Of a DNA stretch of 64,000 nt, positions 40,801-43,800 are shown in pieces. How positions within the stretch are numbered: position 1 is the stretch's first letter; each line of letters starts with the position of its first letter. Location: NCBI RefSeq assembly GCF_055900595.2, contig NZ_CM148325.1. The stretch is one strand, 5' to 3'. Made by a program: the position numbers.

Positions 40801-43800
40801 TAAATATTTGTATTCGTAATACGTCCTAACAGTTTTAGTAAACAAACTGGTATCAGAGAAAACCACTGAGTCTTCTGATATTATTTTAATCCATGATAAG
40901 TCACATCCTGCTGAAATTTCTATTTGCTCATTGAGCACAAAACCGGAAAGAATTTTAATTATGCAAAAATCAATGCCATTTTTCCATAGTGGACGCAGTG
41001 CAACAGCTGAGTTTAGAGCATCACTAATAGATTTAAAATTACCATATTCCCCAACTGTTATTGTGAATGCATACCTGGAATTAAATACTGCGGCACTCTC
41101 TCCAGAGTTAATAGCTGCAGATATCATGTCATAATTTGATATAAAATCATTTGGCGTGATTATTTCTGCGTTTTTATTGTGCTGTGTTCTAAGTTTTGAA
41201 TTTACATGAACACTTTTAACTGCAATACGGGAGTCGTCAACAAGTATTTCATTACCCTCTGTTGCTAACTCTTGTCTTAACTGATCCGGGTCATACTTCA
41301 GCACATTCGGAAAATAGAACTGCTGCACACCGTACGCATCATAAACAGCCATAGAATGGCCCTGTACAGTAACGAATTTGGCAATCTGTCCGTTATATAC
41401 CGGATATCCAGCAGCGTTAATGATGATTGGTTGCGAAACAGGAACGTGAGATCCATCTTCGTTCTCTACATAAACCTGAATCTGGTTTTCAGGATTTACA
41501 GGGGCAGTATCAATTTTACCGATATAAATTTTGCCATTGGCTACGGCTTTAAAAGAACGCGCCATAGTGAAGAGTTGCGAAGGCATACTCACTACAACAT
41601 TGGCTGTAATGTCTGTCATTTAATTTGCTCCAGATACAAGGAATCGCCGCAGCATTGCCACAGTGATGCATTATTAATCAAACAAAGAGACCACTGTGGT
41701 CTTATTGAGGATGCAACCAGCAGATAATAAGATGCCGATCCACTCACAAAAGCGAGGCATCAAGAATGGGAAGAGATGACCCGCAATTTAATCTGCGGCT
41801 ACCTTACGAATTAAAGGAAAAACTAAAACAGCGAGCCAAATCCAATGGCCGCTCTCTTAATTCAGAATTAGTTCAGATAGTGACTGATGCTGTATCAAAG
41901 CCATCCAAAATTTCAGGCTATCGAGACGATGCGGAACGCATCGCTGATGAGCAGTCAGAGCTTGTTAAGAAGATGGTGTTTGATACGCTGAAGGATTTGT
42001 ACAAAAACCCACCTGATGGTGGGTTCCATTTATTAGTCTTGCTTTGTGGACGGTATAAGGGATGCATTTGCCTCTTTAGGCTTCAAGGTATACATCCCAC
42101 CATTAAATGGATCTACAGCAAGCCAACCAATTAACCCACCAAACACAAGGTTTCCACCAATATACCAACCATTAGCATTGGCTTTGATTGGCAGGGTAAC
42201 TGGTTCGTACCCATCCTTCTCCATAGTGATCTGGTAGCTCTTTTTGCCAAAATAACTACCATCTGACTTGGCAAGAGTTACTCCTTGCGGGGTCTTACCT
42301 TGCGCAACAATCACGCCTGATTCGTCTTTTACCTTAAAGCTCGCACCGGAAGGATTGCTGTTCACTTGCACAAGCTGTGTTTCGTCACCAACAATAGTTG
42401 CGCACCCAGATAACATGATAACGCCAGCAACGACGCCAATAATCCTCTTCATATCAATTTCCATATTTAAAAAACCGGAAACATCCTAATGACAAACCAT
42501 TCAAATGTGAAGTAGGCAAAAGATGTTTACTTTTTTCATGGTATCCTGCTCAAAACTAAGGAGGTTGGCGTGAAGCAATTTCTTACTGCTATGTTCTTAT
42601 TCATATCTTTTGGGGCTACAGCAGAGTGCTGGGTCGTTGGAGATATGCGCGGAATAAGCTATTCAGAACGAAATAATTTCCATCCGGAAGAAGATGGTTT
42701 TAGTGGAACATTCATCATTAAGACAAACGGTGAAGATGCCAGCATCACATATTCTGGGACAGATGCGGGCGGCATGGCTTACAAAGCATTGTCTAAAAAC
42801 TCCATCATAGGAATCGGCGCGAATGGCGAAACTCAACGCGTTATCGACTCATGGGTAATACATCCTACTGGAACAGTTTTAATGTCAAAAACCATTTCCG
42901 GTTATGGAAATATGGATTCAACCAAAGCTTTTGTTGGAAAAGTAAAAAGAAAATGTTAGCGATTGAATCCAATTTCCCATACGTTACTGCTGTGTTGCCT
43001 CAGTAGCAAACAGCGGTCTGATGGCATTCGCAGCGTTATTTATCGCTCTTTCATAGGCTGGTGTTCCTGCTTTGGTGTTTGCCAAACGAAGAAGCATATT
43101 CCTTGCTGCTTTGGACTCATACAAGCGCATCATTGCACCAAAACCAGCCTCAATCCCCATTGATACGCCAAGGGTCGCAGTTGCGCCAATCGTCCTTATC
43201 CTGTTGGCTTGCGATTGCCCCGTCTGAGTTACTACATTTGCGGTGTCTGACCTTGCTGTTTGCTGTAGAACTTCATGAAGAGCATCAAGCTCTTTCATGT
43301 GCTTTCCAGAAAAAATAGTGTTGTAAATTTCACCGCCTGACTGAGATTTCAGCTTATTAACTTCAGTGATGAACTTGGCTGGAGAGTCCCCGGCCTTTTC
43401 CGCTATTTTGCTGACGTAAGCTGCACGCATAGCATCTTTCCCCTTATCATCCAGTGCGCTCCAGATTCGTTTCACGTCAGATGGTTTTCTGCTTAATACA
43501 ACGGTATTTATAAGTTCAGGACTGGCTTCACTGCTTGCCTTGTTGAGCTTGTTGGCAATGTTTTTATTAAGCACCTTATTATAAACGTTTGCATAATCGG
43601 AATTTGCTTTAAGGTATTTTGCTGCGTCTGATGCACCGAGGTTTTTAGCAACTGCGTTACGAAGGTCTTTTGACATTGCATTCTCTACCATATTGGTAGC
43701 TGCTTTTGCCTGGTTGGGGAAGACCATAGCATCTCCCTGAACATTAGATCTAAATGCTGTTCTGTGCTGACGCAAGAGATCAAACGTAACATCCAAATCA

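What the first reader, a model, noticed from the sequence alone, without database searches (positions are those of the whole stretch)
42033..42959. Accessory (moron) genes between the ejection-protein and tailspike genes: a lipoprotein and an oppositely oriented secreted protein
At the position where P22 carries sieA and the immI region, this prophage has a 143-aa lipoprotein (lipobox LSGC) and a 129-aa signal-peptide protein with its own strong RBS (AAGGAGG) and GTG start, transcribed against the late operon. Such envelope-targeted prophage morons are commonly superinfection-exclusion or host-fitness factors, but the function here is unknown.
Basis: partly seen in the sequence, partly recalled or inferred. 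Interest (0 to 1): 0.45.

Follow-up and report, generated by a model that had tools for sequence, protein, structure and literature searches.

The report
Prophage envelope accessory gene pair
Between the DNA-ejection and tailspike genes of a P22-like E. coli prophage sit two independent, intact accessory genes, an outer-membrane lipoprotein and a small periplasmic beta-barrel; the barrel gene occupies the slot and reuses the start signals of P22's superinfection-exclusion gene sieA, and neither function has been tested.

Summary
Both ORFs are real, intact genes under purifying selection, and both carry export signals.

- **Lipoprotein (minus strand).** The real start is ATG 42452, giving 139 aa rather than 143. 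It is the orthologue of phage epsilon34 gp15 (phrog_6823). It has lipobox LSGC with an invariant Ala at +2, a PEGA/transthyretin-like sandwich and a highly conserved Gly-rich C-terminus.
- **Its mobility and expression.** It travels with its own promoter (TTCACA-17-TAGGAT) and terminator. It is found in P22-like podovirus prophages and in lambdoid siphovirus tail modules. Its 97%-identical orthologue in prophage Gally is transcribed far above the flanking late genes in published lysogen RNA-seq.
- **Barrel (plus strand, GTG start, 129 aa; phrog_2651, no Pfam family).** It is a signal-peptide protein with conserved Cys at both mature ends. It is modelled as an 8-stranded barrel with no specific structural relative.
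- **Its slot.** It sits exactly where P22 has sieA, convergent with gene 16. It shares 47 of the 50 nt ending at the GTG start with sieA's upstream region, yet the proteins are unrelated.
- **Pairing.** The two genes are mix-and-match modules, not an obligate pair.

Function is unproven. My best guess is lysogen-expressed superinfection exclusion at the outer-membrane or periplasmic stage; the main rival is a host-fitness role. This is a new member of a known kind, of moderate interest.

The parts
42033..42452 (-). Lipoprotein gene (139-aa precursor; Cys at residue 17 of that form, residue 21 of the 143-aa ORF). Orthologue of epsilon34 gp15, phrog_6823. PEGA/transthyretin-like sandwich plus a conserved Gly-rich hydrophobic C-terminal segment.
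42483..42511 (-). Predicted sigma-70 promoter of the lipoprotein gene: TTCACA, 17-nt spacer, TAGGAT.
   Evidence: Consensus scan, not above chance on its own. In IMG/VR loci the breakpoint to unrelated upstream DNA falls immediately upstream of CTTCACA. The divergent Gally-type region keeps TTCACG-17-TAAGAT at the same distance from the ATG. The Gally allele is transcribed in the lysogen.
42006..42025 (.). Hairpin shared by the 3' ends of the lipoprotein gene (minus) and mnt (plus); a likely bidirectional intrinsic terminator.
   Evidence: Scan. Minus-strand fold -15 kcal/mol, z -2.8, followed by UUUUUGU. The equivalent site in epsilon34 is annotated as a Rho-independent terminator.
42570..42959 (+). 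Gene for a secreted 129-aa protein (mature about 111 aa). Predicted 8-stranded periplasmic beta-barrel with conserved Cys at both mature ends (C20, C129). phrog_2651, no Pfam family.
   Evidence: ORF. phrog_2651 E 3e-61. No Pfam hit for it or for 60 relatives. AF2 pLDDT 86.5, pTM 0.76. C20 invariant and C129 nearly invariant in 61 sequences. Mature-part dN/dS 0.137, 64 of 64 copies intact.
42523..42572 (+). Expression socket shared with P22 sieA. It contains TGGTATCCT (42539-47, resembling an extended -10 element), the Shine-Dalgarno AAGGAGG (42558-64) and the GTG start (42570-72).
   Evidence: 47 of 50 nt identical to the region ending at the P22 sieA start codon, and the same in epsilon34 upstream of gene 14 (A5; A4). 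It overlaps the annotated P22 sieA promoter. An 85-bp sieA upstream fragment suffices for exclusion in single copy (PMC10883804).
41766..42134 (+). Context: mnt (Arc/Mnt repressor) with a 1-bp deletion near its end. The resulting read-through tail overlaps the lipoprotein gene's 3' end. No arc or ant gene lies beside it.
   Evidence: Pfam Arc and Repressor_Mnt. A-run deletion relative to epsilon34, Gally and 720R6 (A4). PGAP marks it a pseudogene.
42984..44825 (-). Context: gene 16-type DNA-ejection protein, convergent with the barrel gene (24-bp gap).
   Evidence: ORF. PGAP 'DNA transfer protein'. Gap computed. The barrel gene lies next to gp16 in 77 of 80 IMG/VR loci.
39562..41619 (-). Context: tailspike gene (P22-type head-binding N-terminus), downstream of the cassette in the late operon.
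   Evidence: ORF. PGAP 'phage head-binding domain-containing protein'. Tailspike annotations under the matching DNA in HK620, Sf6 and CUS-3.

Best explanation
Two separate lysogenic-conversion (moron) cassettes are inserted between gene 16 and mnt/tailspike of an apparently complete P22-like prophage.

Shown:
- **Cassette 1** is promoter, lipoprotein gene and terminator, in late-operon sense. Its product is a lipobox protein with Ala at +2. By the +2 rule it should be anchored in the outer membrane facing the periplasm. It has a PEGA-like sandwich and an extremely conserved Gly-rich C-terminus.
- **Cassette 2** is a signal-peptide protein modelled as a soluble 8-stranded barrel, with conserved Cys at both mature ends. 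It sits in the exact slot, orientation and expression socket (upstream region, SD, GTG) that P22 uses for sieA.
- Both genes are intact and under purifying selection, and they move independently of each other.

Inferred:
- Both are made in the lysogen. The lipoprotein is probably also made late in lytic growth, by read-through of the late operon.

My commitment, at roughly 35-40% probability: they act as superinfection-exclusion factors at the outer-membrane or periplasmic stage of phage DNA delivery. They would stand in for SieA, for which no homologue was found in the window. The barrel would interfere in the periplasm with the ejection-protein conduit or needle of incoming P22-like phages. 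The lipoprotein would act on a conserved outer-membrane or periplasmic host component used by both podo- and siphoviruses.
For: Gene reality and selection.

Export signals and their conservation.

Modularity:
- Lipoprotein. Of 80 IMG/VR loci, 75 are P22-like and 5 are siphovirus tail modules. Partners are the barrel (21), a second lipoprotein (17), an hkcB-like TM protein (12) and others.
- Barrel. 77 of 80 loci lie next to gp16, and only 22 also carry the lipoprotein.
- Homologues 69-77% identical lie between gpT and the tape-measure gene, or before gpJ, in lambdoid prophages of E. coli, Proteus and Pseudescherichia. From my own knowledge, the first of these is the position of the HK97 gp15 exclusion moron.

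Expression:
- Gally GALLYPH_14 reads log2(fpkm+5) of about 10-11, against 3.6-4.1 for the adjacent gp16 gene.
- The promoter geometry is conserved between the Gally type and the window type.

sieA slot:
- P22 sieA is convergent with gene 16 with a 22-bp gap; the barrel gene has a 24-bp gap.
- The 50 nt ending at the start codon are 47/50 identical, while the proteins are unrelated.
- No P22-type (type A) SieA was detected in the window or in 160 related loci.
- Almost all alternative occupants of the slot begin with a TM segment, signal peptide or lipobox.
- P22 SieA acts on gp16 and gp20 (PMC10883804).

Other barrel contexts:
- Tandem diversified barrel paralogues lie next to gp16 in another P22-like phage.
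- One homologue lies next to a CI-like repressor.
- Distant homologues are integron cassettes. Integron cassettes are known to include injection-blocking defences (bioRxiv 10.1101/2024.07.02.601719).
Against: - There is no functional test of either family. No paper was found for any of the six protein, locus-tag or gene identifiers searched.
- PADLOC has no match. The only Cor hit covers the signal peptide alone.
- The LF82 study did not class the orthologue as a moron in LB. Its induction appears in the B1/B6 and macrophage samples, which fits a host-adaptation role as well as it fits exclusion.
- The lipoprotein is not tied to one receptor-binding protein type, unlike Cor and Llp.
- Expression of the window's own alleles was not measured. 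The promoter scan alone is not above chance.
- Slot equivalence with sieA could simply reflect a recombination hotspot.
Confidence: 0.55

Rival explanations
1. Host-fitness or virulence conversion. The lipoprotein, and possibly the barrel, strengthens or modifies the envelope for life in the host, as lambda Bor or Lom do (serum, macrophage, bile or envelope stress). It would have no effect on phages.
For: - The Gally orthologue rises from log2 about 5.5 (LB overnight) to about 10-11 in the B1/B6 and macrophage samples. The same paper reports DMEM induction of the Bor lipoprotein of another LF82 prophage.
- The mature lipoprotein sequence is extremely conserved across genera (dN/dS 0.012; 77% identity to the Pseudescherichia and Phytobacter homologues). 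This suggests a conserved host partner.
- It occurs in phages with unrelated receptor-binding proteins.
Against: - Deleting the whole Gally prophage did not change LF82 survival in macrophages (PMC9928086).
- The location is in host-entry modules and in the sieA slot.
- There is no similarity to Bor, Lom, TraT or other known fitness factors.
Confidence: 0.3
2. The barrel is a periplasmic inhibitor, immunity or ligand-binding protein. Candidates are an inhibitor of a muramidase, immunity against a periplasm-acting toxin, or a small-ligand binder, carried as a stand-alone adaptive cassette.
For: - It is a small disulfide-bearing periplasmic 8-stranded barrel. From my own knowledge, MliC/PliC-type lysozyme inhibitors and calycins share this general shape.
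- Distant homologues are single-gene integron cassettes or lone chromosomal genes.
Against: - No MliC, PliC, Ivy or lipocalin Pfam hit for the protein or for 60 relatives.
- No PDB sequence relative, even with a profile.
- The PhiA match is weaker than matches to unrelated barrels.
- No toxin gene lies nearby.
Confidence: 0.12
3. Lytic-cycle role for the lipoprotein. It would be made from the late operon to protect progeny, for example by masking a receptor in cell debris as T5 Llp does, or to help release, rather than to benefit the lysogen.
For: - It is always in late-operon sense, inside tail or ejection modules.
- Terminators are read through by Q-modified polymerase (established knowledge of lambdoid late operons).
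Against: - It has its own promoter, which travels with the gene.
- The orthologue is transcribed in the lysogen while the flanking late genes are silent.
- The gene is dispensable: many P22-like phages lack it.
Confidence: 0.1
4. The ORFs are decaying or unexpressed remnants.
For: - The neighbouring mnt is frameshifted and arc/ant are missing.
- PGAP labels both genes 'hypothetical'.
Against: - 75 of 75 and 64 of 64 copies are intact, with dN/dS of 0.012 and 0.137 in the mature parts.
- The export signals are conserved.
- The orthologue is transcribed.
Confidence: 0.02

Closest known systems
P22 SieA (inner-membrane superinfection-exclusion protein; Leavitt et al., mBio 2024, PMC10883804)
   Same: The barrel gene has the same slot and orientation: the first gene after gene 16 and convergent with it, with a gap of 24 bp against 22 bp. 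The 50 nt ending at the GTG start are 47/50 identical. It is prophage-borne and envelope-located.
   Different: There is no sequence similarity. SieA is a multi-pass inner-membrane protein with the motif FxRYPxEAxxFNK, whereas the barrel is a soluble signal-peptide beta protein. The motif is absent from the window. No exclusion has been shown for the barrel.
Salmonella phage epsilon34 gene 15 and gene 14 (Villafane et al. 2008, PMC2629481); Emek orf129; Gally GALLYPH_14
   Same: epsilon34 gp15 is 99% identical to the lipoprotein, with the same intergenic region and terminator. Emek orf129 is 97% identical to the barrel. Gally and 720R6 carry the lipoprotein at 96-97% identity.
   Different: epsilon34 has an hkcB-like TM and coiled-coil protein in the barrel's place, and a complete mnt-arc-ant region. 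All of these genes are annotated only as hypothetical.
Cor (phi80, N15, HK022, T1) and Llp (T5) exclusion lipoproteins
   Same: They are small phage-encoded outer-membrane lipoproteins, located in or next to host-recognition modules.
   Different: The only hit, to phrog_1119 (Cor), covers residues 5-24, which is the signal peptide. From my own knowledge, Cor and Llp are linked to FhuA-binding phages and block FhuA. This family occurs with O-antigen tailspikes and with gpJ-type tails, and has a PEGA-like domain that Cor and Llp lack.
HK97 gp15 moron (Cumby et al. 2012)
   Same: A 69%-identical lipoprotein homologue occupies the same genome position, between the tail chaperone G/T genes and the tape-measure gene, in lambdoid E. 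coli prophages. The HK97 gp15 position is from my own knowledge and from citations in PMC10883804.
   Different: From my own knowledge, HK97 gp15 is an inner-membrane protein and not a lipoprotein. No homology between the two was tested or seen.
Lambda Bor (outer-membrane lipoprotein moron, serum resistance)
   Same: It is a prophage-expressed outer-membrane lipoprotein. The LF82 study describes Bor as induced on DMEM, and the Gally lipoprotein orthologue is up in the B1/B6 samples of the same data set.
   Different: No sequence or family match. The genome position differs.
PEGA domain (PF08308) and carboxypeptidase-regulatory/transthyretin-like folds
   Different: The score of 17.5 bits is below the gathering cut-off of 20.8. 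The fold says nothing about function. The conserved C-terminal segment WYIGGN...GWLxVDPFNGGMY lies outside the domain.

Membership tests
Bacterial lipoprotein (Lgt/LspA substrate) | N-terminal positive n-region, hydrophobic h-region and a lipobox [LVI][ASTVI][GAS]C | tested here: met
   MKR, then IIGVVAGVIM, then LSGC. The Cys is invariant and the lipobox is kept in 40 homologues.
Bacterial lipoprotein (Lgt/LspA substrate) | Actual lipidation and signal peptidase II cleavage; outer-membrane sorting | not testable with these tools
   Only the +2 rule could be applied. Ala at +2 is invariant and there is no Asp, so outer-membrane sorting is inferred.
Sec/SPI-secreted periplasmic protein (barrel) | n/h/c signal peptide with an AxA-type cleavage site; extracytoplasmic hallmarks | tested here: met
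   MK, a hydrophobic stretch, then ATA|EC. The same architecture is present in 60 distant relatives. C20 is invariant and C129 nearly invariant, and many relatives have a second Cys pair. dN/dS is relaxed in the signal-peptide part only. SignalP was not available.
Moron (Hendrix/Juhala sense) | Present or absent between otherwise syntenic phage genomes | tested here: met
Moron (Hendrix/Juhala sense) | Own promoter and terminator flanking the gene | tested here: inconclusive
   Lipoprotein: a promoter-like site that travels with the gene, plus a -15 kcal/mol hairpin. Barrel: a sieA-type upstream region but no terminator. These are sequence predictions only.
Moron (Hendrix/Juhala sense) | Expressed from the repressed prophage | tested here: inconclusive
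   Met for the 97%-identical Gally orthologue of the lipoprotein in published RNA-seq. There are no data for the window's alleles or for the barrel.
SieA family | Sequence homology; multi-pass inner-membrane topology; motif FxRYPxEAxxFNK | tested here: not met
   BLASTP E about 1. No tblastn hit in the prophage and no motif in any frame.
SieA family | Located between genes 16 and 9 of a P22-like prophage, with its own promoter | tested here: met
   This is positional equivalence only; it does not make the barrel a family member.
Cor/Llp exclusion lipoproteins | Homology beyond the signal peptide; linkage to an FhuA-binding receptor-binding protein | tested here: not met
   The phrog_1119 hit covers residues 5-24 only. 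The phage uses a tailspike.
PEGA domain (PF08308) | Score at or above the Pfam gathering threshold | tested here: not met
   17.5 bits against a cut-off of 20.8. The predicted fold is compatible.
MliC/PliC-type periplasmic lysozyme inhibitors | Pfam MliC match or conserved inhibitor loops | tested here: not met
Known anti-phage defence systems (PADLOC-DB) | A match to any PADLOC model | tested here: not met
   No hit at E <= 1 for either protein.

The most novel reading that the evidence does not exclude
The 111-aa barrel is a new kind of superinfection-exclusion protein. It would be a soluble periplasmic factor that replaces the inner-membrane SieA in the same expression socket and blocks assembly or passage of the trans-periplasmic ejection-protein conduit (gp7, gp20, gp16 or the needle) of incoming P22-like phages. 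Its distant relatives in integron cassettes and next to lambdoid repressors would be single-gene periplasmic anti-phage defences. The co-resident lipoprotein would be a second, outer-membrane-level exclusion factor shared by podo- and siphovirus prophages.
Probability: 0.2. Interest if true: 0.7.

Novelty: new member of a known kind. Interest (0 to 1): 0.4.

Why it matters
Two thirds of sequenced P22-like phages lack sieA (PMC10883804), and what fills that slot has not been characterised. The work here shows three things.

- The slot is a socket that keeps its upstream region, ribosome-binding site and start codon while swapping in unrelated envelope proteins. The occupants seen are an inner-membrane protein, TM/coiled-coil proteins, lipoproteins and this periplasmic barrel.
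- A very strongly conserved lipoprotein moves between podovirus and siphovirus tail modules across Enterobacterales.
- Both genes occur in 2-3% of complete E. coli genomes, including O111 EHEC and the AIEC lineage of LF82.

If either protein blocks phage entry, it would affect phage-therapy host range. It would also give a handle on the poorly understood periplasmic step of podovirus DNA delivery. If instead they are host-adaptation factors, the expression of the orthologue in the B1/B6 and macrophage samples makes them candidates for envelope remodelling in the host.

Tried and rejected
Searches that gave nothing specific:
- Pfam, NCBIfam and PADLOC. The results were a sub-threshold PEGA hit, a 22.8-bit hit to LEPBI_I2678 (cut-off 240), and no PADLOC match.
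- PDB by sequence, with single sequences and with profiles.
- Foldseek against BFVD for the barrel gave no hit at E <= 0.001.
- The afdb50 library was unavailable.
- Pfam scan of 61 barrel-family members gave no family.
- Rfam on 39000-43500 gave only a chance-level sroH fragment on the terminator.
- Literature search by six protein, locus-tag and gene identifiers found no papers. Keyword searches found no functional study.
- The search for related loci with the diverse barrel alignment failed because no stretch was conserved enough; the closer alignment A2 was used instead.

Ideas rejected:
- The barrel is a SieA homologue.
- The lipoprotein is a Cor homologue; the hit is to the signal peptide only.
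- The two genes form an obligate pair or operon.
- The ORFs are remnants.
- The conserved hydrophobic segment at residues 99-117 is a classical TM helix. No 19-residue window there reaches the hydropathy of the signal peptide (all top windows are N-terminal), and AF2 confidence there is low. This point is left open.
- Emek orf149 and orf161 are SieA.
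Full report
**Setting**

The window matches the chromosome of E. coli EC332 exactly. It covers the right end of an apparently complete P22-like (Lederbergvirus-type) prophage inserted beside ybhB-bioA.

The late operon runs on the minus strand:
- gp7, 46248-46940
- gp20, 44822-46237
- gp16, 42984-44825
- tailspike, 39562-41619

Between gp16 and the tailspike lie three genes:
- the plus-strand 129-aa ORF (42570-42959)
- the minus-strand lipoprotein ORF (42033-42464)
- a plus-strand mnt gene (41766-; Arc and Repressor_Mnt domains)

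**Check of the observation**

There are two refinements.

1. The lipoprotein almost certainly starts at ATG 42452 and is 139 aa long.
   - In Gally and 720R6 the upstream ATG is ACG (A4).
   - Homologues begin MKK or MKR.
   - Both PGAP and the epsilon34 annotation use the short form.
2. PGAP starts the other gene at ATG 42591 (122 aa), but the GTG start is better supported.
   - It gives a normal n-region (MK).
   - The 129-aa length is kept in homologues whose signal peptides differ in sequence.
   - Sixty distant relatives have the same MK/MR-plus-hydrophobic N-terminus.
   - The identical SD-GTG is the annotated start of P22 sieA and of epsilon34 gene 14.

**Are they real genes?**

Yes.
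- Among IMG/VR relatives, 75 of 75 full-length lipoprotein copies and 64 of 64 barrel copies are intact.
- Pooled dN/dS is 0.060 for the lipoprotein and 0.221 for the barrel.
- It falls to 0.012 and 0.137 in the mature parts, and is 0.74 and 1.6 in the signal peptides. That is the pattern expected of exported proteins.
- GC content is 44.7% (lipoprotein), 40.8% (barrel) and 35.2% (intergenic). This is below the 47-51% of the ejection genes.

**The lipoprotein**

Identity:
- It belongs to phrog_6823, of unknown function.
- It is 99% identical to epsilon34 gp15 and 96-97% identical to proteins of phages Gally and 720R6.
- The family has about 600 clusters at 90% identity across Enterobacterales.

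Sequence and structure:
- Cys21 and Ala22 are invariant. By the +2 rule, which is established knowledge, it should be sorted to the outer membrane.
- Residues 32-97 give a sub-threshold PEGA hit.
- The most conserved part is the C-terminal WYIGGN-x3-GG-x2-G-x3-VDPFNGGMY segment. It is modelled with low confidence as a helix followed by a hairpin. Its role is unknown.

Genomic contexts:
- A 69%-identical homologue, common in E. coli (for example strain ED1a), lies between the tail chaperone gene T and the tape-measure gene of a lambdoid prophage.
- The Proteus version lies just upstream of a tape-measure gene.
- The Pseudescherichia version lies between gpI and gpJ.
- Of 80 IMG/VR loci, 75 are P22-like and 5 are such siphovirus modules.

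So this is a promiscuous moron of host-entry modules, always in late-operon sense.

**Its expression signals**
- A promoter-like TTCACA-17-TAGGAT sits at 42511-42483.
- A scan hit alone is not above chance. However, in loci where the upstream DNA has been replaced, the breakpoint falls directly at CTTCACA.
- The otherwise dissimilar Gally-type upstream region keeps TTCACG-17-TAAGAT at the same distance from the start codon.
- Downstream, a hairpin at 42006-42025 folds at -15 kcal/mol (z -2.8) and is followed by a U-run. It corresponds to the Rho-independent terminator annotated in epsilon34.

**Published expression data**

In AIEC strain LF82, the Gally orthologue (LF82_139, GALLYPH_14) has these log2(fpkm+5) values (PMC9928086, tables S1 and S4):

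| Condition | Replicate 1 | Replicate 2 |
|---|---|---|
| LB overnight | 6.2 | 4.8 |
| B1 | 9.8 | 10.2 |
| B6 | 10.5 | 10.2 |
| Macrophages, 1 h | 11.0 | 11.0 |
| Macrophages, 6 h | 9.4 | 9.5 |

- The adjacent gp16 homologue stays at 3.6-4.1 throughout.
- B1 and B6 are, as I read the paper, bacteria without macrophages in cell-culture medium for 1 h and 6 h.
- The authors' 5-fold-in-LB criterion led them to say that Gally has no morons. Their own table shows a strongly condition-dependent, late-operon-independent transcript.
- Deleting the whole Gally prophage did not change survival in macrophages.

**The barrel**

Identity:
- It belongs to phrog_2651, of unknown function. It has no Pfam, NCBIfam or PADLOC match.
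- Among sequenced phages only Emek (orf129) and ST-35 carry it.

Structure:
- AF2 gives a confident model (pLDDT 86.5, pTM 0.76) of eight antiparallel strands.
- BFVD gives nothing at E <= 0.001.

Wider family:
- An exhaustive search finds 89 representatives at E <= 1e-3, nearly all 120-150 aa.
- Their alignment keeps the signal peptide, Cys20 right after the cleavage site, W95, G111, G123 and the C-terminal Cys129.
- Because the first and last strands of the model end at these cysteines, a terminal disulfide is likely. This is an inference.
- None of 61 members hits any Pfam family.

Contexts:
- In 77 of 80 IMG/VR loci it is the first gene after gp16 and convergent with it.
- Another P22-like phage has two diverged tandem copies there.
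- A 46%-identical copy lies convergent with a CI-like repressor in a lambdoid prophage.
- A 35%-identical relative is one cassette in an array of 16 attC-like repeats, that is, a chromosomal integron.
- Another relative is a lone chromosomal gene.

**The sieA socket**
- In P22, sieA is the first gene after gene 16 and convergent with it, with a 22-bp gap. It has its own annotated promoter.
- The barrel gene has the same placement, with a 24-bp gap.
- The 50 nt ending at the GTG start (window 42523-42572) are 47/50 identical to the region ending at the sieA start. This stretch includes TGGTATCCT, AAGGAGG and GTG.
- epsilon34 uses the same stretch for its hkcB-like gene 14. Emek shares it from TGGTATCCT onward (A5; A4).
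- The proteins are unrelated. The window encodes no SieA-like sequence or motif, and none of 160 related loci has P22-type SieA.
- Other occupants of this slot next to the lipoprotein are an hkcB-like TM and coiled-coil protein, a 109-aa protein with a hydrophobic N-terminus (MLEIVVLALGISCCVLYAGL...), a 161-aa lipoprotein (LAGC), and a 62-aa protein with a hydrophobic N-terminus. Almost all are envelope-directed.
- The SieA study reports that only 22 of 66 P22-like phages have sieA, that sieA always lies between genes 16 and 9, that an 85-bp upstream fragment suffices for expression, and that SieA acts on gp16 and gp20 (PMC10883804).

**Pair or not?**

Not an obligate pair.
- In 5426 complete E. 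coli genomes the lipoprotein gene occurs in 123, the barrel gene in 146, and this exact junction in 44.
- In IMG/VR, 21 of 75 P22-like lipoprotein loci have the barrel, and 22 of 80 barrel loci have the lipoprotein.
- The predicted promoters are back to back. The lipoprotein's -35 element is at 42511-42506. The sieA-type region starts a few bases further on.

**Interpretation**

Shown:
- There are two independent, selected genes with export signals.
- Their distribution is modular, moron-like.
- The lipoprotein orthologue is transcribed in a lysogen.
- The barrel is positionally and regulatorily equivalent to sieA.

Inferred:
- Outer-membrane and periplasmic locations.
- Expression of the window's own alleles.
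- Any function at all.

I favour superinfection exclusion at the outer-membrane or periplasmic stage, at about 35-40%. The reasons are the slot, the neighbours, the precedents (SieA, HK97 gp15, Cor and Llp) and the tandem diversification of the barrel. A host-fitness role, at about 30%, is supported by the expression pattern of the orthologue and by the extreme conservation of the lipoprotein. An inhibitor, immunity or ligand-binding role for the barrel (about 12%) and a lytic-cycle role for the lipoprotein (about 10%) remain open. Decay is excluded.

**Verdict**

The finding is correct and its cautious interpretation is supported. Both proteins are already catalogued as hypothetical proteins (epsilon34 gp15, Emek orf129, two PHROGs), so this is a new member of a known kind, namely prophage envelope morons. 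The sieA-socket replacement and the cross-morphotype mobility of the lipoprotein make it a reasonable, directly testable lead. Interest is 0.40.

Noticed in passing
window 41766-42134 (+), deletion near 42005: mnt has a 1-bp deletion in an A-run relative to epsilon34, Gally and 720R6. The last three codons are replaced by a 42-aa read-through tail that overlaps the lipoprotein gene's 3' end. No arc or ant gene lies next to it, so the immI region is reduced to a possibly defective mnt. PGAP calls it a pseudogene.
   Followed up: partly
window 39266-39565 (-): A 99-aa (PGAP: 95-aa) very hydrophobic protein (phrog_1443, unknown function) is the last prophage gene before ybhB. A gene of the same length (95 aa) in the same position after the tailspike in Gally, GALLYPH_17, is also strongly up in the macrophage RNA-seq (log2FC 4.9). 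This may be a third envelope moron; homology between the two was not tested.
   Followed up: partly
L008 1-9411 and L009 (metagenome contigs): A 35%-identical barrel homologue is one cassette in an array of at least 16 regularly spaced 87-nt attC-like repeats (TAACAA...GTTAGGC), that is, a chromosomal integron. Neighbouring cassettes include DUF4272, DUF1761, DUF6678, DUF6953 and a weak HEPN protein.
   Followed up: partly
L005 3359-4164 (Logan SRR16757921 contig): Another P22-like phage carries two tandem, diverged barrel paralogues (128 aa each, both with a signal peptide and terminal Cys) in the sieA slot next to gp16. A non-lipoprotein 123-aa gene (phrog_1365) sits in the neighbouring slot.
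   Followed up: partly
L181 5998-7131 (IMG/VR contig): A 46%-identical barrel homologue lies convergent with a CI-like (HTH plus S24 peptidase) repressor gene of a lambdoid prophage. This is another classic site for lysogen-expressed accessory genes.
   Followed up: no
L012/L013 7001-12424 (E. coli ED1a-type lambdoid prophage): The same prophage that carries the lipoprotein homologue between gpT and the tape-measure gene also carries a porin gene (Porin_1) between gpM and gpL. That makes two envelope morons within one tail operon.
   Followed up: no
window 42465-42572 compared with L002, L003, L184: Recombination junctions fall exactly at functional boundaries. One is at the GTG start codon (the window and epsilon34 share everything upstream but have different ORFs). 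One is at TGGTATCCT (Emek). One is at CTTCACA (the lipoprotein promoter). This suggests conserved 'boundary' sequences that let ORFs be swapped behind fixed expression signals.
   Followed up: partly
window about 61698-62420 (EC332 record 1588785-1589507): A KilAC-domain antirepressor gene sits in the nin region of the same prophage, although the canonical ant next to mnt is missing.
   Followed up: no
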